A program made the translations under genes and the position numbers. A model generated the notes under the pieces. The model saw only the letters and a program-made list of their open reading frames with translations. It had not been told where the DNA came from and did no database searches. A DNA stretch of 64,000 nucleotides. Source: an uncultured Candidatus Saccharibacteria bacterium (lineage in GTDB: Bacteria > Patescibacteriota > Minisyncoccia > Phycocordibacterales > WO2-35-19). Of the stretch, positions 15,903 through 29,923 are shown piece after piece; position 1 is the first letter of the stretch; every line of letters begins with the position of its first letter. The stretch is taken from positions 48,699 to 112,698 of the forward strand of contig CAZVUY010000003.1 in NCBI GenBank assembly GCA_964630525.1, given 5' to 3'.

Positions 15903-15976
15903 TGCCGGGTCGTCTAATGGTAGGACATCAGGTTTTGGTCCTGAGTATCGGGGTTCGAGTCCCTGCCCGGCAGCCA
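15903..15976 (+). tRNA. tRNA-Gln (UUG), CCA encoded
   Basis: U1-A72 acceptor pair, anticodon loop UUUUGGU, T-loop UUCGAGU, terminal CCA. Confidence 0.8.
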
Positions 15977-16126
15977 AGTCGTGCGGCGTTCGAGACGCGT
16001 CAACATAACGCTTTTCTTGCTAAGTAAAGCTGATCCGTCTAGAGTGCAAAAACCCATAAAATTCTTTTTCGTGGTCGATTCCAGTCTTCTGGATTTCTAG
16101 ACCATAAAAAGCTATTATGAGCAATA

Positions 16127-17596
16127 ATGATAACTCGAAGATTGGAATTTTGGGCTGACAGCTTCCATGAGGGAAATTGGGCTTGTGAGGAGCTTTCCAA
16201 ATTTTTTAAGCTGAAAAACATTTCTTATGCAAAGGGTTTTATACCAGTCTTTATTTTCTCGATTGATAAAGACACGGAGCTTGAGGTTACCGTTTTGGGA
16301 TCGTATAAGAATTGGTCGCCCATTCCTAAACCAATAAGTGAGCTGTTAGAGTGGGGTAAACCAGATCTCGTTGCTTACGATGTAGAGGATGACAAAATTC
16401 TTTTTGCGATGGAAGAAACTGCCGCAGTCCCTACTGGTAACCAGGCATTACAACGTTGCGAGCGCATTTACGGAAGTCTTCGACTAGGCATTCCATTTTG
16501 GTATCTTTTGGGAGAATTCGGCCTCCATGTGGATGGTGGGGTTCGAAGAGATTCCATTTGGCCAACCGTTTTGGGTATCAAGCTAAGTTGTATTCAACGT
16601 ACACCCTGCATGGTTCTTCATTACTCAGACCAAGAGCATCCAGAAGATTACTCAGTCGGCGAAGGCGTTAAATCCTTATATACAGCTCTTGCTACAGAAA
16701 TTGAAATTTTCCTTGGTAAAAAGAAGCGGGCTGACCTGAACCAAGTTCTTTCTGAGCAATATGCTCACATGCTTAAGTTTGTAGAGAGTCAGGGCCATAA
16801 TCTAGTGAACTTTATTCCTAATAAAGATGTTCTTTATCACTCAGATACTCCAATGCGTCTGGCACAGCTGGTTACTTCAGGTGAAGTGTTGAGTAATGAT
16901 GATCTTGATTTCTTTAATTGGGGAAAGACTGATGAGCTCCCATCAGAGATTTATGAAAAAATAAGACCCGGAGGATCAATAAAAGAAGATGTTTTCGTAA
17001 AATCTTTAGAAGGTTTAGTGGAAAGCAAAAAGGCCTATACCTTGTCAGGAAACGCTGGTTCACGACCTCAGGATATTGAAAGTATTCGTGAATGGTTGAG
17101 TCAACAAAAAGCATTGTTTGAGGCGGGTAATACCACAAACGCAAAATTTACACTTAAAGAAGGCGATTTCCCTTCGAGTATTTCAGGTAGGAGGCATGTT
17201 ACGACTGCTAAGAACGTGTTTTATCTGGTCGATTCATGTGAAGACATCGAAAATGCATTGAAGTTAAGTTTCCCTAGACTTAGTAGTCTTGATCTAACAT
17301 CAAAGGAGATGCCGGCGTTCGTGTATATTTCTAATAGCTTAAAGCCTGGTCGAATTTTTGGTGACCCATTTACAGGTCAGTTGTCAGCTTTTGCAAATAT
17401 TTTTACAAAGAATGTGCTCGGTGATAAAACGAGAATCTCTATTGCTTACTATCCCCATCAAGTTCATACTCAACTATTAGATCGGAATGGCAAACTGAGA
17501 CGCAACAAGGGAATTGTATTGATGTCTGAACTTCTCGACTACGCTGTTTTTCTGGGTGGGGTTGTCGTGAACATGAAATCAGGAGAAATCATATGA
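16127..17596 (+). CDS. Hypothetical protein (489 aa), first gene of a putative restriction-modification / defence operon
   Basis: ORF whose stop overlaps the next start (ATGA). A weak PDLVAYDVEDD...AMEE region. No clear domain. Confidence 0.45.
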   Translation: MITRRLEFWADSFHEGNWACEELSKFFKLKNISYAKGFIPVFIFSIDKDTELEVTVLGSYKNWSPIPKPISELLEWGKPDLVAYDVEDDKILFAMEETAAVPTGNQALQRCERIYGSLRLGIPFWYLLGEFGLHVDGGVRRDSIWPTVLGIKLSCIQRTPCMVLHYSDQEHPEDYSVGEGVKSLYTALATEIEIFLGKKKRADLNQVLSEQYAHMLKFVESQGHNLVNFIPNKDVLYHSDTPMRLAQLVTSGEVLSNDDLDFFNWGKTDELPSEIYEKIRPGGSIKEDVFVKSLEGLVESKKAYTLSGNAGSRPQDIESIREWLSQQKALFEAGNTTNAKFTLKEGDFPSSISGRRHVTTAKNVFYLVDSCEDIENALKLSFPRLSSLDLTSKEMPAFVYISNSLKPGRIFGDPFTGQLSAFANIFTKNVLGDKTRISIAYYPHQVHTQLLDRNGKLRRNKGIVLMSELLDYAVFLGGVVVNMKSGEII

Positions 17597-18165
17597 TCAA
17601 ATACACTTTCAACATCAATGAGGAAATTGCTCGGTGGGTTACCGAGGTGTACGTACGCGATAATAAAAATCTAGATTGGTGGGTAGCTTTTACTAATCCT
17701 ATTGCTGGTCCTTGGAAGAAAATAACAGCACTAAACGGAGACGGAGTTCCTGTTGAGATTTACCGATTCGAAAGAGAGGGAGAAAGGCCGGATCTTATTT
17801 TGGTCAATGACACGCATAAGACAATACTAATTATCGAGGCAAAAGATTTTGTTCAGAAATTAGTAGCTGGTGAGCAAATGCGTAAATCTGCCCGTGTTAT
17901 TAAAGAAATTACTTCTATACTTAGAAATTGCGGTAATGAACATTGGGTATCACGTAAGGATTATAAAATTATTCCTTCGTTCTTATGGTATACAGATAAA
18001 CAAGATCTGATTAAGCCAGAGGATGAGTTGGTACGAGTAACTTATAAAACAGTAGCGGATGATGATTCTGAACTATTGAATATAGTGATCACAAAAGGTG
18101 AATCAGGAGATCTAAAGAACAACTTTGTCTACAATTCACAGATCACTGATGATCTAACTGTTTAA
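17593..18165 (+). CDS. PD-(D/E)xK nuclease-fold protein (candidate restriction endonuclease subunit)
   Basis: RPDLILVND...ILIIEAKD motif. Converges on the methyltransferase genes. Confidence 0.5.
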   Translation: MIKYTFNINEEIARWVTEVYVRDNKNLDWWVAFTNPIAGPWKKITALNGDGVPVEIYRFEREGERPDLILVNDTHKTILIIEAKDFVQKLVAGEQMRKSARVIKEITSILRNCGNEHWVSRKDYKIIPSFLWYTDKQDLIKPEDELVRVTYKTVADDDSELLNIVITKGESGDLKNNFVYNSQITDDLTV

Positions 18166-20030
18166 AATAAAGTGGAAGTTCTGGTAATTCTTTGGAGATA
18201 GGCGTAATTTTTGTCGAATAAGACCGTGTGCTTCAATAGGTTTTTTACTTCTCCCAATGAAGGTGAACCGATATCAAAAGTAGACTCAAGTATAGCTTCA
18301 TAAAGTTCCTTTATACTCTTTTTACCATCTCGCAAAAGATCCACAGCCACATTTGCAACATATTCCTCAATCTTTTTCGCGTTCTCTATTTCTCCAAGAA
18401 ACTCATCTCTAAGTTGGTAATAATCCTTATCACTTGTCGCAATCGGAATAATTACTTCATTTATTTTTCCGAGAGTGAGTGTATTCATACCCTCATTTAG
18501 GATGCATAGGATGATCATCCTATGCACAAGGTTTTTTGGAGCGGTCCCTCCGCGACTCAGTAAAACCTTTTTAGCTATTTCGGTTAGGTGAAAAAGATCC
18601 TGCTTCTTTTTTGGGGGATGCACTTTCTTTTCAAATACACAGTAGTAGTCTCCCACATAGCTTGTGTTTGAAGCCGTCTGTGATTTTGATGATACCACTG
18701 CAGGAATTTGATATTTTGCCTCAGTACAAACGAAAGATTTTTCTGAGAAAGACTCAAGAACGATCTTCCATGCACGGGGATCTAGATTATTGAAAGTCAT
18801 AATAATTTTTCCTCCTTTTTTCAGCTTGCGCTGAAATAGATCCACGATAATTGCTATATCTGCTCCGTACTTATCCCAGGAGCTTACGTATTCTTTTCTG
18901 TCAGAAACGATAATTTCGTCATCGTAGGAAACTCTTTTCTTGAGGAAGCCGTTCCAAATGGCAGAGAATTCTACATACGGAACATTATCTCCGTAAGGTG
19001 GATCAAAGAAAATACCATCGATGCTTTCATCCTCAAATTCCTCTAGCCCATTCTGAGCAGGTTTTAAATCAATTTTGGATGTCGCACCTGTATTTTTGTA
19101 ACTACTTGCGAGAGCCTCAAGTCCTTTAACAAATTTTTTGTATCTAGCCTGTAGGTGAATCACTGGATTTGTTTCAAGGTGTAATGGAGCAATCCAAAAA
19201 CCTGGGATAGTCCATGCAGGCCCGCCTGTACTCAGGTTATTTCTGTAAGGTATAAGTCGTGACGATTGCGCAACGGAAGATGTTAAAAGTAAGAGTGCAG
19301 CATTTCTAATAGAATCTTTTTTTATCTTATGGGCTTTATCGAAGAGTTGGGAAAGTACATAAAATGCTCTAGGGGTGAACAGGTCAGAAAGTTGCATTCC
19401 CGGAAAAGCCAGAATTCTACGATTAATCAATAAATTTTCACTGTCTATCCTGGGAATTTTCTGAATAATAGATTCCTGTTTTTCAATAGCCTTTTTATCT
19501 ATATAAACTTCATTATCACGAGTGATAATTTTTACGATCCTAGTGCCTGTAAACTTTTCAAAATTAAAATACAGTCTTTCGTCACATTTCGCGCAGTGGT
19601 ATTTAGACCCTTTTTTTATTGCATTATCAATTGATCCAATGGTGTTGCAAGAAGGACACTCTGATTCCATGCGATGCACTAAGTACCGGACGTCCTTTCC
19701 ATCGAGGGTATAGAGTTCCTTAAAAGAATCCGCAAACGAAATCAGGTTCTCAATTTCGTGATTAAATTCCTCCACAGTAGGGGGATTAACTGTGACTTCA
19801 GAAAGTAGTTGAGCTAACGGATTTATGTCGAAACCCCTAGAATTAATCCCCAGCTTTTTTGCCTCAGCCAAGAAAACTCCACTTCCACAAAAAGGATCTA
19901 CTACTAAATCACCAGGCTTAAAATGTGACCTTATATATCCATGTAGAATATTTGAAGGCTTTCGTGCCCAGTACTTATGAATTAGGTATTCATTGGGATG
20001 GGTCTCAGCCATCAGTGCTCTTGAGCTCAT
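18162..20030 (-). CDS. DNA methyltransferase (N6-adenine/N4-cytosine type)
   Basis: Motif I VVDPFCGSG and motif IV IFFDPPYG with a long intervening region. Confidence 0.75.
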   Translation of the reverse strand: MSSRALMAETHPNEYLIHKYWARKPSNILHGYIRSHFKPGDLVVDPFCGSGVFLAEAKKLGINSRGFDINPLAQLLSEVTVNPPTVEEFNHEIENLISFADSFKELYTLDGKDVRYLVHRMESECPSCNTIGSIDNAIKKGSKYHCAKCDERLYFNFEKFTGTRIVKIITRDNEVYIDKKAIEKQESIIQKIPRIDSENLLINRRILAFPGMQLSDLFTPRAFYVLSQLFDKAHKIKKDSIRNAALLLLTSSVAQSSRLIPYRNNLSTGGPAWTIPGFWIAPLHLETNPVIHLQARYKKFVKGLEALASSYKNTGATSKIDLKPAQNGLEEFEDESIDGIFFDPPYGDNVPYVEFSAIWNGFLKKRVSYDDEIIVSDRKEYVSSWDKYGADIAIIVDLFQRKLKKGGKIIMTFNNLDPRAWKIVLESFSEKSFVCTEAKYQIPAVVSSKSQTASNTSYVGDYYCVFEKKVHPPKKKQDLFHLTEIAKKVLLSRGGTAPKNLVHRMIILCILNEGMNTLTLGKINEVIIPIATSDKDYYQLRDEFLGEIENAKKIEEYVANVAVDLLRDGKKSIKELYEAILESTFDIGSPSLGEVKNLLKHTVLFDKNYAYLQRITRTSTLF

Positions 20031-21271
20031 GTTTTCTTAAGAATTACCATTAGGTCACAAAGGTTAATTCCAACGTCTCCACCTTTTCTTCGTTGGCTTG
20101 CAGCCCATGAAGCCTCAGTGAACTTAGGTATTCTGAGAGCTACTTTTTCCACATTATATACATCTTTCAATCTGTGGATTAGATTATGTGTGACAGGTAT
20201 ATATTGACCTTTGATAACAGTGTCGCCAATCATTAAGACAACTCTACCATCAGACTCTAAGTAGCCGTTTAGGTTTCGAAGCCCGTTCTCCATATCATTA
20301 AGATATTCCTCAACTTTTTCTGGCTTTCCAACTTTAAATGCTTCTCTAATTTCACCTTTTCGAATAGATGCATGATCTATATCAAGCCAGGCCAGTTCAA
20401 GTGAATTAACTCCACTGTATTTATATGAATTAAAGTAAGGTGGATGACAGATAATTAATTTAGCAACCTGGTCCTTGCTATTTGGCGTATCAAATATAGA
20501 TCGAACTTCAATATTAATAACCGACTTCCTGGTTTTGGGTAGTTCAGGGGCTGACTCCGCAATTTCTAATGCTTTTTTAAGAAAGAAAGGGAAGGCATCC
20601 TTTTCAGCCGTCTCCACATCTAGAAAAAGTCTCCCTTGTTGTGTTGTCGCCCGCGAAACCCTACGGACGATACCCAAGAAAGCAACCATTAAAGCGTCTT
20701 TAATTTCAGAAGAGTAACTCAGATTCTTAACCCCTGTTCGAATCTTTTCAAGAGAAATAATTGTTTCTGGTAGAAACCAATGATCGGGGTTTCTTAGTCC
20801 CGTTAAAACAGGTTTTTTTATCCTTTTTGAATTTGTATAAAAATCTCTTACTTCATTGAGAGCTTGGAGATAGTCTTCCTTGTCAATCTTTGTAGTTTTA
20901 ACTCGTGATATCAGTACAGACAGAGGGTTGATATCGAAGCAAGAAGCCTGTCTCTTTAATAAGAGGGCTTCTAGTGCTGTGGTTCCACTACCACACATGG
21001 GATCAATAACCAAATCATTTTCCTTCGTGTATTCTTTAATTGCATGTCTTGCAATAGGAGGGGGGAATTTACCAAAATATCTGAAAATGCCATGAGATAA
21101 ATAAGACAGTGTTTTGTTTGAGGCACTAGAAGTCCAAACCTCGATATCTTTTGAAAGTTCCTTGATTCTGCTCCTATTTATTAAATCAGCATACTTTTCC
21201 TGAATTTCGTGGCTTGAAAAATCAACAATTTCAAGTTCTGGGATATTATCTTTTACGTTATAGATAGACAT
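20027..21271 (-). CDS. DNA methyltransferase (N6/N4 type), second copy
   Basis: VIDPMCGSGTT motif I and ICHPPYF motif IV. Its stop overlaps the start of the other methyltransferase gene. Confidence 0.7.
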   Translation of the reverse strand: MSIYNVKDNIPELEIVDFSSHEIQEKYADLINRSRIKELSKDIEVWTSSASNKTLSYLSHGIFRYFGKFPPPIARHAIKEYTKENDLVIDPMCGSGTTALEALLLKRQASCFDINPLSVLISRVKTTKIDKEDYLQALNEVRDFYTNSKRIKKPVLTGLRNPDHWFLPETIISLEKIRTGVKNLSYSSEIKDALMVAFLGIVRRVSRATTQQGRLFLDVETAEKDAFPFFLKKALEIAESAPELPKTRKSVINIEVRSIFDTPNSKDQVAKLIICHPPYFNSYKYSGVNSLELAWLDIDHASIRKGEIREAFKVGKPEKVEEYLNDMENGLRNLNGYLESDGRVVLMIGDTVIKGQYIPVTHNLIHRLKDVYNVEKVALRIPKFTEASWAASQRRKGGDVGINLCDLMVILKKT

Positions 21272-21321
21272 CAGCAATGTATATAGAATATGTTTGCAAT
21301 GTAATTATATCAGTAAAGTCT

Positions 21322-22638
21322 TTAATTTAACGATACCCGCTTGTTGATAAGTGTAATTTTCCCCCTTAAACAGCCGAGCAATTCTCTTTTTTCAAAATCT
21401 TTCCCTTCTCTAAGAATATATTTAGCATAATTACGAATATCTATTTCAGGTATATCAGGCCTTTCCCTGTTACCTAGTAGTACCCTTTGAAATTTTTTAT
21501 ACCTCTCCACTTCTTCTTTTATCTTCTTATTTATGCCGAGTTCGTCTATCTCGATCTGATCAATTAATTTCTCAAACTGAGTGATTAGATCATTCTCGTT
21601 GATATAGTTACCCTTACAATCCACCCCTTTACTCCTTGAACATCCGTAGTAGACATGTCTGTTCACGCTTCCACTCTTTAGCTTCTTAAATTTCTCCTCT
21701 GCTGTTATTCCGGAGCTGCATAGCCCACAAACCATCAACTTGGTAAAAGCAAACTCCTTATTTGAACCTCTAACGTAATCTATTCGCATATTTTCTTGCA
21801 CCATATCAAACAATTCTTTCGTTATGATAGGTTCGTGCTTGCCCTTATACCAATTACCGCTTTTTGTTGGAAACTCAAATGTGCCGTAATAGAAGTGATT
21901 GCATAATATCCGATGAACATTTCCTATGCTTAGGTTTTTATTTCCATTGGCTGTCCTAAAATTAAGATCAAATTTAAGCCAATTATAAATTTTCCTTGTT
22001 GACCACTTTTCGTAGGCTGCTTTTTCAAACATTTTCTTAATAATTGGCGCTCTCTCTGGATCTATCATCACATATCCCTTTCTATCGATTCTCTTTTCCG
22101 TAAGGTAGCCAGTCGGTGCAACAGATGGCCACAATCCCATTTCTACTCTAGCTCTCAACCCTCGTTTTACGTTTATGCTTTTATTATCGTTTTCAAGTTT
22201 TGCCTGAGAACATAGAATCATTAGTAGAAATTTTTCGCTCGGAGTGTTCGTAAAGGTTTGGCCGTAGGTTCTAATTTGTGTCAGTTTTTTCTCATCCATT
22301 AAATCAACAATTGATCCCAGATCTCCGGCGTTTCTAGACAATCTATCTGGATGCCAAACTAGTATTCCGTTGAATCTATCTCTCCTTAGATCCTCAAGAA
22401 TCTCTTTAAATACTGGCCGTTGCCCTGAATCCTTGGCAGAATGGGCTTCTCGTCGTATGTCTACAATCTCAAGGCTTTCTCGCTCAGCTATAGCGAGCAT
22501 TTCTTTAACCTGAGACTCAATTGATAAGGCCTGCTTTTCATCTTGTTCTGTTGATTTACGAGCATATAAGCAATACCTAACTTTTATTACTGGTATTGGT
22601 AATGGATTGCCGATTAGGGCAGTTGCTTGCGTTTCCAT
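21322..22638 (-). CDS. Large serine recombinase (integrase/transposase type)
   Basis: N-terminal YARKSTEQDEKQALSIESQ serine catalytic domain, a recombinase domain and a C-terminal Cys-rich zinc ribbon. ATG at 22638. Confidence 0.8.
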   Translation of the reverse strand: METQATALIGNPLPIPVIKVRYCLYARKSTEQDEKQALSIESQVKEMLAIAERESLEIVDIRREAHSAKDSGQRPVFKEILEDLRRDRFNGILVWHPDRLSRNAGDLGSIVDLMDEKKLTQIRTYGQTFTNTPSEKFLLMILCSQAKLENDNKSINVKRGLRARVEMGLWPSVAPTGYLTEKRIDRKGYVMIDPERAPIIKKMFEKAAYEKWSTRKIYNWLKFDLNFRTANGNKNLSIGNVHRILCNHFYYGTFEFPTKSGNWYKGKHEPIITKELFDMVQENMRIDYVRGSNKEFAFTKLMVCGLCSSGITAEEKFKKLKSGSVNRHVYYGCSRSKGVDCKGNYINENDLITQFEKLIDQIEIDELGINKKIKEEVERYKKFQRVLLGNRERPDIPEIDIRNYAKYILREGKDFEKRELLGCLRGKITLINKRVSLN

Positions 22639-22968
22639 GTATATATTGATGACAGACCCCAAAACCCTGCATAGCTATGCAGAACTAAGAAAACGTCGCA
22701 TACTCGCGTTTAGGGCTTAGCAAAAGCTCTGTAGTGCGATAGATTCAAATGGATAGCCGTAAGTGCTATCATGTAAATACAACTGAATATTGGCCCGTAA
22801 AGGGCAGGACCTAAACCCGAAAGGGCATGGTCCCAAATTCGCAAGCAACATAGAGAACCCGTCATTAGGGCGTTGCTTGCGTTACTAGGGGAAACCCTAG
22901 TAGAGGAGTCCGCGAGGCCCTTCCTAGTGGCGGGCTTTCTGTTTCTATTAAAAACGCAAGCAACAAAC

Positions 22969-23847
22969 ATGATTAAGAAAATATTACTGGGGCTAATTGG
23001 AGGCTTTGTCCTACTCGTATGGATCGGATCAATGCTTCCAGATGTCCCAAGGGAGGAAGTAAGCCAAGATAAAGTTTCTGTCTCATCTGATGTTCAAGAA
23101 GCAACTGCTCCTCAAATATCAATACAAGAAACTAGTTCAGTTACGAATCAATCTCCTACTACTGAAACCGCAACCAAGTCAGTCCAAACGACTCAATCAA
23201 GTCCCACTACAGCCCCGCAATACACATATTATTCAGTAACTGATGTGGTAGACGGAGATACGGTCAAAGTGAATATAAATGGAACTGTAACAACTCTTCG
23301 ATTGATTGGAATGGATACGCCAGAGACTGTTGATCCCAGAAAACCAGTTCAATGCTTTGGTAAAGAAGCATCTAACAAAGCAAAAGAATTACTTTCAGGA
23401 AAGAAAGTAAGACTTGAGATGGATCCAAGCCAAGGAACTCTCGATACTTATGGCAGAACTCTTGCTTATATCTACCGAGAAGACGGTTTGTTCTTTAACA
23501 AATACATGATTGAGCAGGGGTATGCCCACGAGTATACCTACCGAACTCCATACAAATACCAGGCTGAATTTAAAACTGCTCAAAAGACAGCTCAAACCAA
23601 TCAGGCGGGACTGTGGTCTCCAAGTACCTGTAACGGAGATACGACCTCCTCTTCCGAAACTGTCCCAGCCACTACTTCATCAGGTGGAAAGTTCTACACC
23701 TCATCACACTACAGTGCGAAATATTACTATCCAGAGGCATGTAATGGTTGGGAAAGTCTAAGTCCAACTTATCTCAAATCATTCGATACCCTAGAAGCTT
23801 TATTGGCTTCTTATCCTTCGAGAACTAAGAGCCCACAGTGTCAGTAG
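22969..23847 (+). CDS. Membrane-anchored thermonuclease (SNase family)
   Basis: N-terminal TM helix, a Ser/Thr-rich linker, then an SNase core LIGMDTPETV...GRTLAYIY. Confidence 0.75.
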   Translation: MIKKILLGLIGGFVLLVWIGSMLPDVPREEVSQDKVSVSSDVQEATAPQISIQETSSVTNQSPTTETATKSVQTTQSSPTTAPQYTYYSVTDVVDGDTVKVNINGTVTTLRLIGMDTPETVDPRKPVQCFGKEASNKAKELLSGKKVRLEMDPSQGTLDTYGRTLAYIYREDGLFFNKYMIEQGYAHEYTYRTPYKYQAEFKTAQKTAQTNQAGLWSPSTCNGDTTSSSETVPATTSSGGKFYTSSHYSAKYYYPEACNGWESLSPTYLKSFDTLEALLASYPSRTKSPQCQ

Positions 23848-24247
23848 TCTGGTTACTTTCTGTCTTGCCCCTGCTTGAGGTCGGCTCATTTTTACCATGT
23901 CTAATGATCACCTCAAAACCTTCCGATCTTTTTACTCCCATTAATTCAGCAATCAACCCTTTCGGTCTTGGTCGTACGTAGTTTTTATGATGATTATCAA
24001 GCCAATACTTCACAGCCCACTTTTCACCCCTTTGCATAGCCAAAAATAATTTACTATGTGCCAAATCATTTCCTGTTTCTTCTCCTAACTGCATGGCCTT
24101 ATCCATTTCTTTTCTGAACGCAGGATCTTTTTCTCGCCATTGGTAAACTGTGTTTCTTGCGATTCCAAGATTCTTGCAGACAACCGAGACATTCGGAAGT
24201 AGGCATAATTCCTCCAGAAGCTTTTTAGATTTTCGGTACTTCTTCAT
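23825..24247 (-). CDS. HTH protein, phage terminase small-subunit-like
   Basis: N-terminal HTH LLEELCLLPNVSVVCKNLGIARNTVYQW. Sits next to a ParB-MTase gene, as in phage packaging regions. Confidence 0.4.
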   Translation of the reverse strand: MKKYRKSKKLLEELCLLPNVSVVCKNLGIARNTVYQWREKDPAFRKEMDKAMQLGEETGNDLAHSKLFLAMQRGEKWAVKYWLDNHHKNYVRPRPKGLIAELMGVKRSEGFEVIIRHGKNEPTSSRGKTESNQTTDTVGS

Positions 24248-25508
24248 CTCTTAATACTTCAGCAGTTAACCCGGTGAGTTTTTCCCAACGCTTAACAATG
24301 AGATCGCAAAATATTGGCTCGAGCTCAATCCCATAGACTCTACGCTTTAATTGTTCTCCTGCGATTAGGGTACTACCAGAACCTAGGAAGCTATCCAAAA
24401 TCACGTCTCCAGGCCTTGTGCAGCGTAGGATGGCCTTCTCATGGAGCTTCGGTGGCTTTGAGGTAGCATGTTCGTAATCTTTGCCTGCCAATCTCTTAAC
24501 AGCCCAGATATCTCCAATCTGATCTAACATCTCGTTTCCTGTACTAATTTCTTTATTTAAAACCTCGTTAAGATCTTGCTTATCAGTTGAGAGATACGGA
24601 GAGCCTTTAGTGCCATAGGTACAAGGTTCGTAACACTTGTTGAATGCAACTGTAGGAGTGGGGTTGTGGCCATTCTTTACCCACAAGCACACTCGCTTAT
24701 TGTTAATTCCAAGTTCGGCGTAAAGAGTCTGCATGAGCCAAATGTATCGCTGATCCGACCAGTAAAAAATGTGGAAATCTTTCTTGGCTACGGAAAGAGC
24801 GTTTACCATAGAACTTCTAATTAGATTTCTGTACGCCTCTTCAGTGCGATTGTCCTCGACTTTACCACCGTAACCTCTTTTACCGCCGATACCTTTGTCA
24901 TAACTTACGTTCAGGTTATAGATAGGGTCCGAATAGATCATGGACGTCTTCTCATCCTCGAATAGTTTATGGACCACTTTTGGGTCAGTAGAGTCGCCAC
25001 AAATAATCTTGTGCTTACCCAGAGTGATAACATCTCCGAGTTTAGTCTTAGGTTCCCTAATCTTCTTGACCTCTTTTTCTACATCGAAGTCGTCGTCTTC
25101 AACTTCTGCATCCTTAGCCCAGATGTTATCTAACTCAATTTGGTCAAAACCGATATCCACCAGTAGATCCACATCAAAGTCCTTGAGTTTCTCGAAATCC
25201 CAGTCTCCAATCACGGCGTTACTCGTGAGCATATATCTTTTGTATTCATCTTCCGTTAGTTTACGATTTGGTACTCTCACTTCAATTTCTTCCTTACCTC
25301 TGCCAAGAATTTGGAGGGCTCTGATTCTTTGATGTCCGGCGCAGATCTTGCCATCTAGGTCTATTGCTGGAATTTCTACTAGATTAAACTTCTTTAAACT
25401 TTTCTTAAGATCTTCCATTGTCTTGTCCGACATAACCCTTGGGTTCTTAGGGGAGGGTAAGAGGGCGTCGACTGTACGTTTTTCCGTATGCCATATAAGT
25501 TTTTTCAT
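24225..25508 (-). CDS. ParB-like nuclease domain / DNA methyltransferase fusion
   Basis: ParB motif LVEIPAIDLDGKICAGHQRIRAL. Methyltransferase motifs SDPIYN and ILDSFLGSGST. ATG at 25508. Confidence 0.75.
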   Translation of the reverse strand: MKKLIWHTEKRTVDALLPSPKNPRVMSDKTMEDLKKSLKKFNLVEIPAIDLDGKICAGHQRIRALQILGRGKEEIEVRVPNRKLTEDEYKRYMLTSNAVIGDWDFEKLKDFDVDLLVDIGFDQIELDNIWAKDAEVEDDDFDVEKEVKKIREPKTKLGDVITLGKHKIICGDSTDPKVVHKLFEDEKTSMIYSDPIYNLNVSYDKGIGGKRGYGGKVEDNRTEEAYRNLIRSSMVNALSVAKKDFHIFYWSDQRYIWLMQTLYAELGINNKRVCLWVKNGHNPTPTVAFNKCYEPCTYGTKGSPYLSTDKQDLNEVLNKEISTGNEMLDQIGDIWAVKRLAGKDYEHATSKPPKLHEKAILRCTRPGDVILDSFLGSGSTLIAGEQLKRRVYGIELEPIFCDLIVKRWEKLTGLTAEVLRDEEVPKI

Positions 25509-25658
25509 ATTGTTGGTGATTAGCTTTGTAACCACTTCTAGACCTTACGCAAAACGGGCCCACAACGCCGATCCCGTAGGATCTGCTTTGTGGGCCCGTA
25601 GGCTCCGAATCTATGTAAGTGTGCTTAAAGTTTATATCCACCCGTAAAGGGTGTCAAG

Positions 25659-26345
25659 ATGCTTTACAAAATCTGTGGATTGGGCGATAATGAAAGTATG
25701 CATCAAACACAGCAGAAATTACTTGACCTGATTGGTCGCCAAGACCTGGGGAAAATGAGCCTAAGGCAGATTGCTAAGCTCGTGGGGGTTGAAAATAAGC
25801 CTCAGATCGTGAAGCATCATCTTCTTCAGCTTGAGAAGGCGGGGCTTATTCAGCTTAACCTCGAAAGTGGCATAATCCGTCTCACTAGCCGAGGGTTTAA
25901 CCCATCTCCTGTTAAGAGCATTTTCTACTCTATTCCCATTGTGGGTGCCGCTAACTGTGGCCCAGCAAATATTTTTGCAGAAGAAAGAGTTGAGGGGTAT
26001 CTAAAGGTATCTTCAAAAATGCTTCCCCGCAGGAGAAATGATCTCTATGTGCTTATAGCTGACGGACCATCCATGAACCGGGCGGAAGTGGTTGATGGCA
26101 AAACCATCGATAGTGGCGACTTCGTTATTGTTGACCGTTCATATAATACCCCTAAGGATGGTGACATCGTCGTGGCTGTTATTGACGGCATGGCGACAAT
26201 CAAAAGATATCGGGAAGATAAGGATCACGATCAAATTATTCTCGAGGCGGAATCTACTGAGAAATTTCTTCCAGTCTTTATCCACGAGGGAGACGATTTC
26301 GTGATTAGCGGTAAGGTTATCAATGTTATTAAGAATCCAAAATAA
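25659..26345 (+). CDS. S24-peptidase repressor (CI/LexA-like)
   Basis: N-terminal wHTH and C-terminal S24 domain (ADGPSMN ... GDIVVA ... TIKR). Divergent from the ParB-MTase gene. Confidence 0.7.
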   Translation: MLYKICGLGDNESMHQTQQKLLDLIGRQDLGKMSLRQIAKLVGVENKPQIVKHHLLQLEKAGLIQLNLESGIIRLTSRGFNPSPVKSIFYSIPIVGAANCGPANIFAEERVEGYLKVSSKMLPRRRNDLYVLIADGPSMNRAEVVDGKTIDSGDFVIVDRSYNTPKDGDIVVAVIDGMATIKRYREDKDHDQIILEAESTEKFLPVFIHEGDDFVISGKVINVIKNPK

Positions 26346-26347
26346 TT

Positions 26348-26587
26348 ATGGTTAAGAAAAATATTCACACGGTCTACAACAGTGACCGCAAGATGTGGGA
26401 GACAAAGAAGGAAGGACAAGCAAAACCACTCGCTTCATCACACACTAAGGATGCGGCAGAGGAGAAGTCTATTCGCGAAGCAAAGAAAGCAGGGGTTGAG
26501 CATGTGATCCACAACAAGGACGGCAAGATCTCTGACAAAGACAGTTACGGCAAGGACTCCAACCCTCCAATCGATAGGAAACACTAA
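26348..26587 (+). CDS. DUF2188-like small protein
   Basis: SHTKDAAEEKSIREAKKAG...VIHNKDGKI...SYGKDSNPP pattern. Confidence 0.5.
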   Translation: MVKKNIHTVYNSDRKMWETKKEGQAKPLASSHTKDAAEEKSIREAKKAGVEHVIHNKDGKISDKDSYGKDSNPPIDRKH

Positions 26588-26599
26588 TTACCAACTCCG

Positions 26600-27520
26600 A
26601 TGATGACTGTCTTTACATGGCTACTAGCTAAATTTGCTGAAACGGCATTTGGCGGTGTAATCATGGAAGGACTTGAGCACTATTTCCCAGATTTATTTAA
26701 GGGAAAGACAAAAGAATTGGTAGATGTTTATGAGAAAAGAATTAGGGAGAAGAATAAGAAAATTAGAGAGCTAGAAAAAGCAAAGACAAAGGAACAGCAA
26801 CGCCATGATGAAGAGGAATCAAGACTTATTGATTCATTGAAAAGAAGGAGCATAGCGACGGATAAATTGATTGAGCAGTACCACAAACCCCTGAATGCAA
26901 TATTAATTTCGTATGCCACACAACGAGAAGATGTGGGTGGGAGAAATAAAGAGTCCCATTTTCTTAAAGAAGAGTTAGAGAAATATAACTCTAAGTACCT
27001 AGGTGGAACAGATGTTCTTATTCCTCCCGCCCATGTTCCTTCAGGTATAAAAAGCCAGGGCGATTTAAAGAAATGGTTTGAGGAAGATATTTTGAAGGGT
27101 CGATATTGCAAGATAAAGTTTATGATCTTGTTTGATATAAAGAAGTCTGCTTTTTGGGGCACATATTTGCCCTACATTCAAAAGAAACCCATGCATCACA
27201 GTGTTGGTGAAGTCCTAAGTGTCGGAGATGTTTTCACAGAGGAGCAAATTAATAAATTGGCTCTAAGTGAGATTATTAAATCTGGCGATATAGCTTGGTT
27301 GGCATCATCAGTTATATCTGAGGCTGAAATAGAGATCATATTAAGAAACCAAAAAAAGATTGAGCAAGAGATTGGCAATCCTTCTTTAAGAGTGGTTGCT
27401 GATGGTGATATTAAAGTAAAATTATCCTCTGCATTATCAAAATTTATACAAAGTGCTGATTCTGTGGCTGACGCAATTATTGATGAGGCCAAGTTTTGGA
27501 ATGAAAAGATTAAGGGTTAA
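26600..27520 (+). CDS. Hypothetical protein (306 aa)
   Basis: ORF. Hydrophobic N-terminus and a charged coiled-coil segment. Confidence 0.4.
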   Translation: MMTVFTWLLAKFAETAFGGVIMEGLEHYFPDLFKGKTKELVDVYEKRIREKNKKIRELEKAKTKEQQRHDEEESRLIDSLKRRSIATDKLIEQYHKPLNAILISYATQREDVGGRNKESHFLKEELEKYNSKYLGGTDVLIPPAHVPSGIKSQGDLKKWFEEDILKGRYCKIKFMILFDIKKSAFWGTYLPYIQKKPMHHSVGEVLSVGDVFTEEQINKLALSEIIKSGDIAWLASSVISEAEIEIILRNQKKIEQEIGNPSLRVVADGDIKVKLSSALSKFIQSADSVADAIIDEAKFWNEKIKG

Positions 27521-27533
27521 AGATTAAAATCTT

Positions 27534-27908
27534 ATGATTAGATGCTCAAATTGCAAATCAATATTGGTTAAGGAGATAGACATGAATTATGCCTCTGTCA
27601 AAAAAGAAGGTGAGCCCGCTGATTCCTCAGAACTTTTACCAGAGTACTTTCAGTGCGAGACTTGTAGTCATGCCTGGTTTGCTGATCCGTCTGCTAAAAA
27701 ACTATATCTTGAATATAAGGAGTTGGTACCAAAAACAGAAATTATATCTCAGATTGCACGACCCCGTGGCACATATACTATCTATCATATTAAGCCAGAA
27801 GAACTTTCTCGGAGATTAGAAATTGCTCGTATACTTACTGAGGCACATCAGCATGATTTAAATATAGATGCTGGGGACTGGTATGAAATATTTCAAGATG
27901 CTAGATAG
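27534..27908 (+). CDS. Zinc-ribbon hypothetical protein
   Basis: CSNC...CETC motifs. Confidence 0.4.
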   Translation: MIRCSNCKSILVKEIDMNYASVKKEGEPADSSELLPEYFQCETCSHAWFADPSAKKLYLEYKELVPKTEIISQIARPRGTYTIYHIKPEELSRRLEIARILTEAHQHDLNIDAGDWYEIFQDAR

Positions 27909-27933
27909 TTAAAGATATTAAATTACAGACGAT

Positions 27934-28560
27934 ATGGAAACTTTCATATTAAACATTTATCAAAAATTAGGAGATTACTTTACAGGAAGTAAAAGAAGGA
28001 GGTTGTTATATGCACTTGTTGTAATATTCTTTGTATCTATTTTAGTAATTTCGACCTGTTTTAAATTATCTGTTTCAATCGATACTCTTTATTGGGTTTT
28101 TAGTAGTCTCGTTCAGGCACTTTTAGCACTTGTTGCATTAATGGGAGTCGTATCAGTATTTAAATTACAATCACTTAAATCATCTGAGGACCAGTTTTTG
28201 ATGATTGCAAGAGAAAGTACTTATACCTACTACATCGGAGCGCCACCATCAACTATTGAATTATTGTTATCAAAAATAGAACCAGTCATATCTTCTAATA
28301 ATTTAGACAAATCTAACCACCTGCACATTCTCAGAGATAACATTATGGAAGTAAGATCATCTAAGGAATTAGTGGTGAATTATGCTACAAAATATGCAAT
28401 ATTTACCTTTCTAGTTGTTCTGTTATCCCTACTTTTTCTAATGTGCACAACTTATATTTCTAGGTTCTATTTGGGTGTACCCTCCCTGTACCTCATGTTT
28501 GTGTTAACCGCATATTCTTTATTTCTTGCGATGAAGGGATTTTCTGGCTCTATTAGATAA
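27934..28560 (+). CDS. Hypothetical 4-TM membrane protein
   Basis: Four hydrophobic helices. Confidence 0.45.
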   Translation: METFILNIYQKLGDYFTGSKRRRLLYALVVIFFVSILVISTCFKLSVSIDTLYWVFSSLVQALLALVALMGVVSVFKLQSLKSSEDQFLMIARESTYTYYIGAPPSTIELLLSKIEPVISSNNLDKSNHLHILRDNIMEVRSSKELVVNYATKYAIFTFLVVLLSLLFLMCTTYISRFYLGVPSLYLMFVLTAYSLFLAMKGFSGSIR

Positions 28561-28627
28561 TGTCCATAAATAAATGCTGAAAAGTGTCACTTTTGTCACT
28601 TTTTGCTATCCTTAAAGAAACATATAT

Positions 28628-29263
28628 ATGGACCAGATAGTCTACATACTCACGAATGAAGCCATGCCCGGCTATGTAAAGATTGGGATTACTGGTGATT
28701 TACAGACAAGGATTAAGCAACTAAGTAGCACCTCGGTTCCCGTCCCTTTTGAATGTTTTTATGCCAAAAAGGTAAAAGATGCTCGGTTTGTAGAAAATAG
28801 GTTACAAGCCACATTCTCTCAGGACAGAGTCGATTCTGGGGCAGGTAGAGAATTTTTCATGATCCAACCCGAGCAGGCAGCAGCCGCCCTGAGTCTTGCT
28901 GAAGGAGAGGAAATCATATTAGGTGACTCAACCATATCTGAACAGGAGCGAATTGCTATTGAGGAAATCAAAAAACGCCGTCCTGGATTTAACTTTTCAA
29001 TGGTAGGTATAAAACCAGGTGCAATATTAACTTTCTCTTTAGATGAATCAATTACTTGTGTGGTTCATGATTCAAAGAAAGTTGAGTTTAATGGAGAGGT
29101 GACCTCACTATCAGATGCAGCTATGAAAGTTCTAGAATCAAAAGGTCTAAACTGGAAAGCGGTTTCTGGACCTGGTATCTGGATGTATGAAGGAGAGAAT
29201 CTATATGAAAGAAGAATTAGGATGGAGGAAGAAGGGGATGGATCTATTTCTGAGAATAATTAA
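28628..29263 (+). CDS. T5orf172 / MUG113 (GIY-YIG-like) domain protein
   Basis: VYILTNEAMPGYVKIGIT...R.KQL...PVPFE...GREFF motif. Confidence 0.55.
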   Translation: MDQIVYILTNEAMPGYVKIGITGDLQTRIKQLSSTSVPVPFECFYAKKVKDARFVENRLQATFSQDRVDSGAGREFFMIQPEQAAAALSLAEGEEIILGDSTISEQERIAIEEIKKRRPGFNFSMVGIKPGAILTFSLDESITCVVHDSKKVEFNGEVTSLSDAAMKVLESKGLNWKAVSGPGIWMYEGENLYERRIRMEEEGDGSISENN

Positions 29264-29482
29264 CGTGTACGAGACGCGTCATTCGGGAGTGTTAAAATAA
29301 ATCTATTCCGTCAAGCAGGGCTTGACCGACCACGGTTCTAACACGAGGCGGCCAGCAGCCATGTGAGATAGACTGAGACGCCTAAATCAGTCATATTTCT
29401 CAAAGTATTTTTTGAACGAGTCATGGGCTCGAACCGTCTTTGGATGGTGTCCTAAACGGGTCAAGATTGATAAAATATAAAT

Positions 29483-29923
29483 ATGAAAATTATTAGTCTA
29501 AATACTTGGGGTGGGCGTGCAGGAAAGGAAGGGTTACTTTCTTTCTTTAAGGAGCATAAGAATGATACGGATATCTTTTGTCTCCAAGAAATTTGGTCCG
29601 CACCCTATAGTCATTTAGAGGGATACAAAGCTGGCGGTAAGGAGATTAATCATGCGGAAATCATGGTTCAGGGTCTTCAGGAAATCACTGAGCTTTTATC
29701 TGATTTTGTTCCATATTTCCGACCACACCATGGTGATCACTACGGTCTTTTGATGATGGTAAAGAAAGATATCGAGGTGAAAGTTGAGGGAGAAATTTTT
29801 GTACACAAGCACAAGGGATATATTCCTGAAGGTGCCTCGCCCTACAACTTTGAGACCATGACAGCCAGCAGTCATATACTAAGTCAGGTGACTAGGATAC
29901 CTCGGCTTATTTATCCAAAATGA
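29483..29923 (+). CDS. Endonuclease/exonuclease/phosphatase-like protein, short and possibly truncated
   Basis: N-terminal MKIISLNTWGG resembles an EEP start. At 146 aa it is shorter than typical EEP proteins. Confidence 0.4.
   Translation: MKIISLNTWGGRAGKEGLLSFFKEHKNDTDIFCLQEIWSAPYSHLEGYKAGGKEINHAEIMVQGLQEITELLSDFVPYFRPHHGDHYGLLMMVKKDIEVKVEGEIFVHKHKGYIPEGASPYNFETMTASSHILSQVTRIPRLIYPK

What the first reader, a model, noticed from the sequence alone, without database searches (positions are those of the whole stretch)
26348..29263. Tight five-gene cassette of unknown function ending in a T5orf172/GIY-YIG-like gene
Directly downstream of the island repressor lie five co-oriented genes with 12-67 nt gaps. 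They encode a DUF2188 protein, a 306-aa coiled-coil protein with a hydrophobic N-terminus, a CxxC zinc-ribbon protein, a 4-TM membrane protein and a T5orf172/MUG113 GIY-YIG-like protein. T5orf172-domain and small membrane proteins recur in defence islands, and the cassette sits in a mobile island next to a restriction-modification module. The combination is not one I recognise as a named system. It may be an abortive-infection or defence cassette, or satellite interference genes.
Basis: inference. Interest (0 to 1): 0.7.

Follow-up and report, generated by a model that had tools for sequence, protein, structure and literature searches.

The report
Mosaic defence cargo on integrative island
The five tightly packed genes are real, but they are not one five-part machine: they are a repressor-led string of independently mobile, mostly uncharacterised candidate anti-phage genes at the end of a 13-kb integrative island, which is an ordinary kind of thing with two protein families worth testing.

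Summary
There are five co-oriented ORFs at the stated coordinates, with gaps of 12, 13, 25 and 67 nt and the stated domains. The reading as one five-gene system does not hold. The genes form the right arm of a ~13.3-kb island (about 15991-29281). The island sits beside tRNA-Gln, is flanked by a 12-bp direct repeat, and carries a large serine recombinase and a type II restriction-modification module.

Related islands share only the head of the operon: S24 repressor, DUF2188, g2 and g3. DNA similarity to a sister island stops at the g3 stop codon and resumes at a conserved ~88-nt terminal element. Between those points the cargo differs: g4 and g5 here, DUF5655/PDC-S18 and other genes there.

- **g5** is a full-length member of PADLOC's untested single-gene candidate PDC-S57, a GIY-YIG-type nuclease.
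- **g1** matches PDC-S16.
- **g2** belongs to a small unannotated family (~110 clusters). It usually occurs alone after restriction or nuclease genes (Vsr, Mrr, HsdR-YgjP, HNH), and in one clade near uvrB.
- **g4** is a 4-TM protein that recurs in other islands next to TIR, PifA-like or Ymh genes.

None of g2, g4 or g5 had relatives in viral contigs. The likeliest function is repressor-linked defence cargo made of independent modules. No function has been tested.

The parts
15903..15976 (+). tRNA-Gln, 15 nt to the left of the left island end
   Evidence: ARAGORN and Rfam.
15991..16002 (+). Left copy of the 12-bp direct repeat CGAGACGCGTCA (att-like core)
   Evidence: There are only two copies in the 64-kb window, against 0.1 expected by chance. 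blastn-short gave E = 0.008.
16127..17596 (+). Type II restriction endonuclease of the nicking-endonuclease type
   Evidence: PADLOC REase_II PDLC03392, 1.9e-142, full length.
17593..18165 (+). 190-aa protein of unknown function, overlapping the REase stop codon
   Evidence: ORF. No family found in Pfam, NCBIfam or PADLOC.
18162..20030 (-). Type II DNA methyltransferase
   Evidence: PADLOC MTase_II 7.3e-135. Pfam N6_N4_Mtase.
20027..21277 (-). Second type II DNA methyltransferase
   Evidence: PADLOC MTase_II 1.4e-105.
21322..22662 (-). Large serine recombinase (island integrase)
   Evidence: Pfam Resolvase + Recombinase + Zn_ribbon_recom. PHROG integrase 9e-65. 75% identical to the recombinase of sister island L009.
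22808..22923 (+). LOOT RNA (Rfam RF03000), a recurrent backbone element of these islands
   Evidence: 63.2 bits against a gathering score of 46.4. Also present in L009 and L020.
22873..23847 (+). Staphylococcal-nuclease-fold protein
   Evidence: Pfam SNase 2e-25.
23825..24247 (-). Small HTH protein with weak terminase-small-subunit-like or transposase-HTH-like matches; possibly a directionality factor
   Evidence: All matches are below threshold. Conserved in L009 at 51% identity.
24225..25535 (-). ParB-domain DNA methyltransferase (orphan)
   Evidence: Pfam N6_N4_Mtase 2.9e-28. PHROG 498 7e-86 and a ParB-like PHROG.
25554..25599 (.). 21-nt-arm inverted repeat in the divergent promoter region; a candidate operator or hairpin
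   Evidence: the repeat finder I1: 90% complementary, 4-nt loop. Not tested further.
25659..26345 (+). LexA/CI-type S24 repressor, first gene of the rightward operon
   Evidence: Pfam Peptidase_S24 7.5e-19. TIGR00498 lexA scores 89.9 bits, below its cut-off of 110.95. By eye the sequence shows GPSM (Ser) and IKR (Lys) motifs.
26348..26587 (+). g1: DUF2188 protein (PADLOC candidate PDC-S16)
   Evidence: Pfam 2.2e-12. PADLOC 6.1e-20. Follows an S24 gene in all three island variants.
26600..27520 (+). g2: member of a small unannotated family (coiled coil plus alpha/beta core plus helical C-terminal domain)
   Evidence: 106 clusters. 110 representatives among 1.84 billion proteins. No Pfam or PDB sequence match. 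AF2 pLDDT is 76 overall and above 90 for residues 100-180.
27534..27908 (+). g3: zinc-ribbon protein, a rare companion of g2
   Evidence: 5 clusters only. Found next to g2 in the window, L009/L010, L026 and L013/L014.
27934..28560 (+). g4: 4-TM protein, recurrent cargo at island ends
   Evidence: 25 clusters. TM2 is nearly invariant. AF2 pLDDT 83. Contexts.
28628..29263 (+). g5: T5orf172 (GIY-YIG-type) protein = PADLOC PDC-S57, the last gene of the island
   Evidence: Pfam 7e-17. PADLOC PDLC05041 2.8e-66, profile positions 5-208 of 212.
29270..29356 (+). Conserved ~88-nt right-terminal element that begins with the right copy of the 12-bp repeat
   Evidence: 79% identical to L009 10643-10730 and 82% identical to L024 8683-8769. 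No Rfam match and no covariation.

Best explanation
The five genes are the distal part of one repressor-led transcription unit (S24-g1-g2-g3-g4-g5). This unit forms the right arm of a ~13.3-kb serine-recombinase island inserted beside tRNA-Gln. It is a mosaic, not a single machine.

**Shown**
- A conserved head (S24 repressor, DUF2188, g2, g3) is shared by related islands.
- It is followed by a swappable cargo slot between the g3 stop codon and a conserved terminal att-like element.
- In this island the slot holds g4 (a 4-TM protein) and g5 (a GIY-YIG/T5orf172 protein of the PDC-S57 family).
- Each family also travels on its own in other restriction or defence neighbourhoods.

**Inferred mechanism**
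- While the island is integrated, the genes are transcribed together with the repressor from its maintenance promoter. Phage lambda expresses rexA-rexB with cI in the same way (established knowledge).
- They protect the host and the island against incoming phages or other mobile DNA, as separate one- or two-gene modules.
- g5 probably cuts foreign DNA.
- g4 probably acts at the membrane, in exclusion or in abortive depolarisation.
- g1-g3 probably form a module tied to DNA-damage signalling. The S24 repressor is of the self-cleaving LexA/CI type. DUF2188 also recurs in operons governed by the DNA-damage-activated CapH/CapP regulators.
For: **Anatomy.** The gaps are tight and the consensus scan found no internal terminator-like site on the + strand. 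S24 ends 2 nt before g1. The equivalent spacing is an 8-nt overlap in L009 and a 5-nt gap in L026.

**Island boundaries.**
- The 12-bp repeat occurs only at 15991 and 29270.
- An independent 13,424-bp contig spans window 15919-29342.
- Island GC is 0.395 against 0.436 for the rest of the window.

**Modularity.**
- blastn against L009 aligns 26534-27911 at 76% and stops at the g3 stop codon. It resumes at 29270-29357.
- The same terminal element lies 47 nt after the g4 homologue in L024.
- L009 carries different cargo in the slot: a 356-aa protein, DUF5677, DUF5655 = PDC-S18 (9.4e-98), and 78-aa and 193-aa proteins.
- Cargo families are shared among islands. Family f12 is in L009 and L024, f27 in L026 and L024, and g4 in the window, L020, L021-23 and L024.

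**Defence association.**
- g1 = PDC-S16 and g5 = PDC-S57. PADLOC's PDC families were derived from genes embedded in BREX, DISARM or type I RM systems and are untested (10.1101/2024.01.29.577857).
- g2 lies directly after Vsr+Dcm (L004, L011, L015), Mrr (L029), HsdR-YgjP (L044), HNH (L033/L040) and an N6_N4 MTase (L027).
- g4 lies next to a TIR protein matching PDC-S66/ThsB-like models, a PifA-like KAP NTPase, and a Hypoth_Ymh protein in an S24-led operon that also encodes Prok-E2/ThiF and Prok-JAB proteins.
- DUF2188 has been predicted to act in defence and occurs in operons with the DNA-damage-activated CapH/CapP regulators (10.1101/2022.04.27.489752). It also sits in the lysogeny module of Streptococcus prophages, close to the CI-like repressor.
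Against: - No function has been tested for any of the five families. The PDC families are untested candidates by their authors' own statement.
- One g2 clade sits in plain housekeeping surroundings (uvrB, ruvABC, ATP synthase, S16). g2 may therefore have a cellular, DNA-related role rather than a defence role.
- Co-transcription is inferred from spacing only.
- The contexts of the closest g4 relatives (64-69% identity) could not be retrieved, so a g4-g5 pairing at short evolutionary range is not excluded.
- The att assignment rests on a 12-bp repeat found by a post hoc search.
Confidence: 0.6

Rival explanations
1. One reading: all five genes form one multi-component abortive-infection or defence system.
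For: The genes are co-oriented with tight spacing and no predicted internal terminator. The parts could plausibly combine: a membrane protein, a nuclease and small adaptors.
Against: The five genes co-occur only in this island and its near-identical copy (L001). The sister island L009, whose g2 is 87% identical, lacks g4 and g5. g2, g4 and g5 relatives each have different neighbours elsewhere.
Confidence: 0.05
2. S24-DUF2188-g2-g3 is the island's own regulatory or life-cycle module, controlling maintenance, excision or replication. On this reading it is not defence, and only g4 and g5 are cargo.
For: This four-gene head is the part conserved among the three island variants. DUF2188 genes sit in the lysogeny modules of temperate phages and in a satellite. 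No replication gene has been recognised in the island, so an unannotated gene could fill that role.
Against: g2 mostly occurs without any recombinase, S24 or DUF2188 gene. It appears as a single gene after restriction or nuclease genes, or near uvrB. That is hard to reconcile with an island-specific life-cycle role. g2 relatives are absent from IMG/VR viral contigs.
Confidence: 0.15
3. g2 is a DNA-damage-inducible DNA-repair or DNA-processing protein. It would limit the collateral damage of restriction-modification and cytosine methylation, as Vsr does, rather than attack phages.
For: - g2 lies directly after vsr in two separate g2 clades (L011/L015 and L004).
- In L011 and L015 it stands opposite a LexA-S24-Dcm fusion protein.
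- In the window, L009 and L026 it stands behind an S24 repressor.
- In one clade it stands near uvrB.
Against: - There is no sequence support. Pfam scans of 69 family members never hit HhH-GPD.
- The uvrB-linked copies form a single clade, so they count as one evolutionary event.
Confidence: 0.15
4. g4 and g5 form a two-gene system, with a membrane partner and a GIY-YIG nuclease.
For: They are adjacent and co-oriented, and together they make up the variable cargo of this island. g4 relatives are tightly linked to another enzyme-like gene in other islands: TIR with a 13-nt gap or an overlap, and Ymh with an 8-nt gap.
Against: The 67-nt gap is the largest in the operon. g4 partners differ from island to island. 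In L024 g4 lies directly next to the terminal element with no g5-like gene. The four g5 relatives that were fetched lack g4. PDC-S57 is modelled as a single-gene candidate.
Confidence: 0.05

Closest known systems
PADLOC phage defence candidates PDC-S57 (g5) and PDC-S16 (g1)
   Same: g5 matches the PDC-S57 model over its full length (2.8e-66). g1 matches PDC-S16 (6.1e-20). Like those families, both genes sit beside restriction-modification genes.
   Different: The PDC families are untested candidates found by 'guilt-by-embedding'. Here the genes lie in a repressor-led island operon, not inside a BREX, DISARM or type I RM system.
Phage lambda cI-rexA-rexB (and similar repressor-linked exclusion genes of prophages)
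   Same: An S24-type repressor is followed in the same transcription unit by accessory genes that include a 4-TM membrane protein. This parallel rests on established knowledge of lambda and on the anatomy seen here.
   Different: No RexA or RexB homology was detected. The element is not a prophage: no structural or replication genes were recognised. The cargo is swappable and larger.
CapH/CapP-regulated operons that contain DUF2188 (Lau et al., bioRxiv 10.1101/2022.04.27.489752)
   Same: A DNA-damage-responsive repressor system is coupled to an operon that encodes a DUF2188 protein and further uncharacterised proteins.
   Different: The regulator here is a single self-cleaving S24 (LexA/CI-type) protein on the same strand as the operon. 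CapH/CapP is an HTH plus a metallopeptidase, transcribed divergently from the operon. The downstream genes are also different.
T5orf172 / GIY-YIG nucleases of phage-satellite conflicts (ICP1 Odn; PLE proteins)
   Same: They share the T5orf172 domain. The literature links this domain to nuclease-based conflicts between mobile elements (PMC8263062, PMC8096241).
   Different: Only the ~90-aa N-terminal domain is shared. The C-terminal half of g5 is specific to PDC-S57. Phage matches cover at most 77% of g5, at 29-42% identity.
Defence islands carried by integrative elements next to tRNA genes
   Same: The island has a recombinase, an RM system, an orphan methylase and variable candidate defence genes. 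It has direct repeats at its ends and lower GC than the flanking DNA.
   Different: The backbone includes the LOOT RNA and a conserved ~88-nt terminal element. Neither has been described as part of such islands, as far as I could find.

Membership tests
Single multi-gene defence system (any named or new) | The component genes co-occur and keep their order across unrelated genomes | tested here: not met
   About 45 g2 loci, 4 kinds of g4 island and 4 g5 loci were examined. The five genes are together only in the window and its identical copy.
PADLOC PDC-S57 | Full-length match to the PDC-S57 profile | tested here: met
   PDLC05041, 2.8e-66, residues 2-201 against profile positions 5-208 of 212.
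PADLOC PDC-S57 | Demonstrated anti-phage activity | not testable with these tools
   The authors describe the 145 PDC systems as untested. No paper mentioning PDC-S57 was found.
PADLOC PDC-S16 / DUF2188 | Match to the PDC-S16 profile and to Pfam PF09954 above the gathering score | tested here: met
   PADLOC 6.1e-20. Pfam 47.3 bits against a cut-off of 22.
GIY-YIG superfamily (T5orf172 branch) | Domain match above the gathering score | tested here: met
   PF10544, 62.2 bits against a cut-off of 20.
GIY-YIG superfamily (T5orf172 branch) | Catalytic Tyr, Arg and Glu residues present | tested here: inconclusive
   By eye the sequence shows VYIL, YVKIG, R28 and GREFF (E75). These were not aligned to a structural reference.
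LexA/CI self-cleaving S24 repressors | S24 peptidase domain plus an N-terminal winged-helix DNA-binding domain | tested here: met
   Peptidase_S24 7.5e-19. The LexA_DNA_bind and HTH_5 matches are weak.
LexA (equivalog TIGR00498) | Score above the curated cut-off | tested here: not met
   89.9 bits against a cut-off of 110.95. It is a LexA/CI-like repressor, not the host LexA.
CapH/CapP-regulated DUF2188 operons | A divergently transcribed HTH repressor plus a Zn-metallopeptidase | tested here: not met
   No metallopeptidase is present. The regulator is an S24 protein on the same strand.
HhH-GPD DNA glycosylases (considered for g2) | Sequence or profile match to HhH-GPD | tested here: not met
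   Pfam scans of 69 family members gave no HhH-GPD hit. hhalign against Nth gave probability 0.4%. There was no PDB sequence hit.
HhH-GPD DNA glycosylases (considered for g2) | Fold match that includes the helix-hairpin-helix motif and the catalytic Asp | tested here: inconclusive
Phage satellites (PICI/PLE-like) | Integrase plus repressor plus replication module plus packaging or capsid-redirection genes | tested here: not met
   An integrase and a repressor are present. Only a sub-threshold TerS-like HTH match was found, and no primase, replication or capsid genes.
Lambda Rex / known membrane Abi proteins / SLATT (considered for g4) | Homology to RexB, SLATT or another known TM effector | tested here: not met
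Integrative island with a serine recombinase | A recombinase gene, defined ends, and insertion relative to conserved flanking DNA | tested here: met
   Recombinase. 12-bp repeat at both ends. Terminal element conserved in L009 and L024. No empty site was observed, so insertion itself is inferred.

The most novel reading that the evidence does not exclude
g2 defines a new, compact defence family of about 110 clusters across bacteria and archaea. It rides at the 3' end of restriction and nuclease operons, in the same 'guilt-by-embedding' pattern that produced the PADLOC candidates. In this island family it has been joined to an S24 repressor, DUF2188 and the g3 zinc ribbon to form a DNA-damage-triggered module. 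g4 would be a second new family: a membrane effector that works with interchangeable enzymatic partners (TIR, T5orf172, Ymh).
Probability: 0.25. Interest if true: 0.6.

Novelty: new member of a known kind. Interest (0 to 1): 0.4.

Why it matters
If the reading is right, this locus is a clean natural example of how integrative islands assemble defence cargo. A fixed repressor-led head and a fixed terminal site bracket a slot in which single-gene modules are exchanged.

It also gives two concrete, small families to test. g2 is ~300 aa and associated with restriction genes. g4 is ~210 aa, has four TM helices, and occurs with TIR, PifA-like or Ymh partners. Both are absent from Pfam, NCBIfam and PADLOC v2.

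It adds an S24-type regulator to the DUF2188 operons previously linked to DNA-damage-activated CapH/CapP control.

None of this changes current concepts. The value lies in candidate discovery and in correcting the 'five-gene system' reading.

Tried and rejected
- **g2 in the genome collection:** single-sequence patterns found no relatives.
- **Viral contigs:** scans for g2, g4 and g5 found nothing.
- **PDB sequence searches:** g1, g2, g4 and g5 gave nothing useful.
- **Foldseek of the g2 model:** no hit with E below 0.3. The afdb50 library was unavailable.
- **Pfam scan of 69 g2 members at E up to 5:** only coiled-coil noise, such as H-NS_N, MAT1 and SieB.
- **Longer g2 relatives:** no informative domain fusions.
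- **hhalign of the g2 profile against E. coli Nth:** probability 0.4%. I therefore keep the glycosylase-like fold only as a weak lead.
- **Literature:** no paper mentions PDC-S57. The Burroughs & Aravind 2020 paper on DUF2188 is not held. The LOOT motif is not described in the main text of its source paper, and no supplements are held.
- **The ~88-nt terminal element:** no Rfam match and no covariation.
- **Truncated EEP gene to the right (29483-29923):** I considered whether the island had split it and rejected this. The gene keeps its N-terminus and reads away from the island.
- **uvrB linkage:** I rejected it as independent evidence for a repair role, because those g2 copies form a single clade.
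- **Promoter and terminator scans:** no more hits than in shuffled sequence.


Full report
**1. Observation**

The five ORFs exist exactly as listed. They are g1 26348-26587 (79 aa), g2 26600-27520 (306 aa), g3 27534-27908 (124 aa), g4 27934-28560 (208 aa) and g5 28628-29263 (211 aa). All lie on the + strand, separated by 12, 13, 25 and 67 nt.

Pfam confirms DUF2188 for g1 (2.2e-12) and T5orf172/MUG113 for g5 (7e-17 and 4.5e-12). It finds nothing for g2, g3 or g4. g3 has two CxxC pairs that are conserved in its homologues. g4 has four long hydrophobic helices around a variable loop. The g2 model has N-terminal amphipathic helices, a long helix at 36-81, and a confident alpha/beta core.

The upstream gene, 25659-26345, is an S24 LexA/CI-type repressor (7.5e-19). 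It scores below the LexA equivalog cut-off. It ends only 2 nt before g1, so the transcription unit really has six genes. The consensus scan found no terminator-like site on the + strand within the cassette.

**2. The element that carries them**

The 12-mer CGAGACGCGTCA occurs only twice in the window. One copy is at 15991-16002, 15 nt after tRNA-Gln. The other is at 29270-29281, 7 nt after the g5 stop codon. About 0.1 matches would be expected by chance. An independently assembled 13,424-bp contig from another data set covers window 15919-29342. Island GC is 0.395, against 0.436 for the rest of the window.

Between the repeats lie, in order:
- a type II restriction enzyme of the nicking-endonuclease type (1.9e-142) and a 190-aa protein of unknown function;
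- two full-length type II methyltransferases;
- a large serine recombinase;
- a LOOT RNA;
- an SNase-fold protein;
- a small HTH protein;
- a ParB-methyltransferase;
- the S24-led operon.

**3. Synteny test**

*g2.* g2 has a real family of 106 clusters at 39-87% identity and about 290-310 aa. A full HMM search of 1.84 billion representatives found only 110 clusters, with no informative domain fusions. I retrieved about 45 loci and clustered all neighbouring ORFs.

The order S24-DUF2188-g2-g3 recurs in only two other island variants:
- L009/L010: g2 87% identical, g3 70%, g1 51%, S24 49%, recombinase 75%.
- L026: g2 78% identical; the upstream 258-aa protein is an S24 peptidase.

In neither variant do g4 or g5 follow. 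In L009, g3 is followed by a 356-aa protein, DUF5677, DUF5655 (= PADLOC PDC-S18, 9.4e-98) and two further genes.

At the DNA level, similarity between the window and L009 runs from the end of g1 to the g3 stop codon (26534-27911, 76%). It then disappears and resumes at 29270-29357. The same ~88-nt stretch, which starts with the att-like repeat, lies 47 nt after a g4 homologue in a third island, L024.

The slot between the g3 stop codon and this terminal element is therefore a variable cargo position. g4 and g5 are what occupy it here.

*Other g2 contexts.* Elsewhere g2 is a solitary gene in varied company:
- after vsr next to dcm, in two separate g2 clades (L004; L011 and L015). In L011 and L015 it faces a LexA-S24-Dcm fusion protein;
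- after an Mrr-type endonuclease (L029);
- after HsdR and YgjP (L044);
- after an HNH protein (L033, L040);
- after an N6_N4 methyltransferase (L027);
- near TraG-like and ArdC genes (L057);
- between a resolvase-domain gene and an integrase-family gene on a haloarchaeal plasmid.

One clade lies near uvrB among housekeeping genes. Those copies cluster together, so they count as one evolutionary event.

*g3.* g3 is a very small family of 5 clusters and is seen only next to g2.

*g4.* g4 has 25 clusters. It occurs:
- at the end of an island carrying a PifA-like KAP NTPase (L020);
- directly before a TIR protein (PDC-S66/ThsB-like), in an island with a type III-like RM and a serine recombinase next to tRNA genes (L021-23);
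- directly after a Hypoth_Ymh protein, at the end of another S24-led operon that also encodes Prok-E2/ThiF and Prok-JAB proteins (L024).

*g5.* The g5 relatives in four MAGs from different phyla have no g4 nearby.

None of g2, g4 or g5 has relatives in IMG/VR viral contigs.

**4. What the parts are**

*g5.* It matches PADLOC's PDC-S57 model end to end (2.8e-66), and g1 matches PDC-S16 (6.1e-20). The PDC families are 145 single- and multi-gene candidates. They were derived from genes embedded in BREX, DISARM and type I RM systems, and their authors describe them as untested. g5 carries the GIY-YIG-type T5orf172 domain. By eye, the expected Tyr, Arg and Glu positions are present.

*g1 (DUF2188).* It has been predicted to act in defence. 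It occurs in operons controlled by the DNA-damage-activated CapH/CapP regulator pair. It has also been proposed as a putative Thoeris effector domain. In Streptococcus prophages it sits in the lysogeny module, close to the CI-like repressor.

*g4.* Its fold search was uninformative.

**5. Most likely mechanism**

*Shown.* There is one tightly spaced, repressor-led gene string, with a conserved head and a swappable tail. Each family moves independently among restriction and defence neighbourhoods.

*Inferred.* The genes are expressed together with the S24 repressor while the island is integrated, as lambda expresses rexAB with cI. They act as separate protective modules:
- g5 as a nuclease against incoming DNA;
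- g4 at the membrane;
- g1-g3 as a module connected to DNA-damage signalling through the self-cleaving type of repressor.

My confidence that the locus is a mosaic of independent modules rather than one system is about 0.6, and higher for the negative part of that statement. That the modules are truly anti-phage remains untested.

*Rivals.*
- The head is island life-cycle machinery (0.15).
- g2 is a DNA-repair or DNA-processing accessory (0.15).
- g4-g5 is a two-gene system (0.05).
- All five genes form one system (0.05).

**6. Comparison and novelty**

The locus works like the repressor-linked exclusion genes of prophages, and like defence cargo on integrative islands. Two genes belong to PADLOC candidate families. 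It is not a member of any named multi-gene system.

It resembles the CapH/CapP-DUF2188 operons in logic but not in regulator type. I rate it a new member of a known kind.

The points of interest are the g2 and g4 families, which are unannotated, small and repeatedly associated with defence genes, and the clearly delimited cargo slot.

**7. Limits**

- The source organism is unknown.
- The att assignment comes from a post hoc repeat search, although the conserved terminal element and the independent contig support it.
- All functions are inferred.

Noticed in passing
window 22808-22923 (+); L009 1948-2063; L020 3472-3591: LOOT RNA (Rfam RF03000), an orphan sRNA motif, recurs in these islands at 63-80 bits. 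In the window and L009 it lies between the serine recombinase and the first rightward gene. In L020 it lies at the head of the rightward genes leading to a PifA-like gene and a g4 homologue. It looks like a backbone part of this island family.
   Followed up: partly
window 29270-29356; L009 10643-10730; L024 8683-8769: A conserved ~88-nt element marks the right end of three islands that carry different cargo. It starts with the att-like repeat and contains a nearly invariant ~50-nt stretch (TTCCGTCAAGCAGGGCTTGACCGACCACGGTTCTA...). It has no Rfam match and no covariation. It could be a recombinase-binding att arm or a conserved host target.
   Followed up: partly
L011 1460-3037 (-) and L015 898-2472 (-): Proteins of ~525 aa fuse a LexA DNA-binding domain, an S24 peptidase and a C5 cytosine methyltransferase. 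They sit inside RM modules (C protein, REase, Vsr) and are transcribed divergently from vsr-g2. This suggests a self-cleaving, damage-responsive methyltransferase/regulator.
   Followed up: no
window 25554-25599: A GC-rich inverted repeat with 21-nt arms (90% complementary, 4-nt loop) lies in the divergent region between the ParB-methyltransferase and the S24 repressor. It is a candidate operator or hairpin.
   Followed up: no
window 16127-21277: The RM module has one nicking-endonuclease-type REase (489 aa), a 190-aa protein of unknown function that overlaps its stop codon, and two separate methyltransferases. From my own knowledge, this layout is typical of type IIS systems that use one methylase per strand.
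   Followed up: no
window 29483-29923: The first gene to the right of the island is a truncated Exo_endo_phos protein (146 aa, covering profile positions 1-87 of 225). It overlaps the start of a DKNYY-family gene and is probably a pseudogene remnant.
   Followed up: no
L024 189-8636; L009 7027-8097; L026 2621-3298: Two further unannotated cargo families are shared among the S24-led island operons. Family f12 is 356 aa in L009 and 230 aa in L024. Family f27 is 225 aa in L026 and 212 aa in L024. Neither has a Pfam or PADLOC match.
   Followed up: partly
L061 (Thermus thermophilus plasmid NZ_AP025620.1, 16577-22021): A DUF2188 gene follows a TPR protein and abuts an HTH gene, with a thermonuclease-family gene 2.3 kb away. 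The window island likewise combines DUF2188 and an SNase-fold gene.
   Followed up: no
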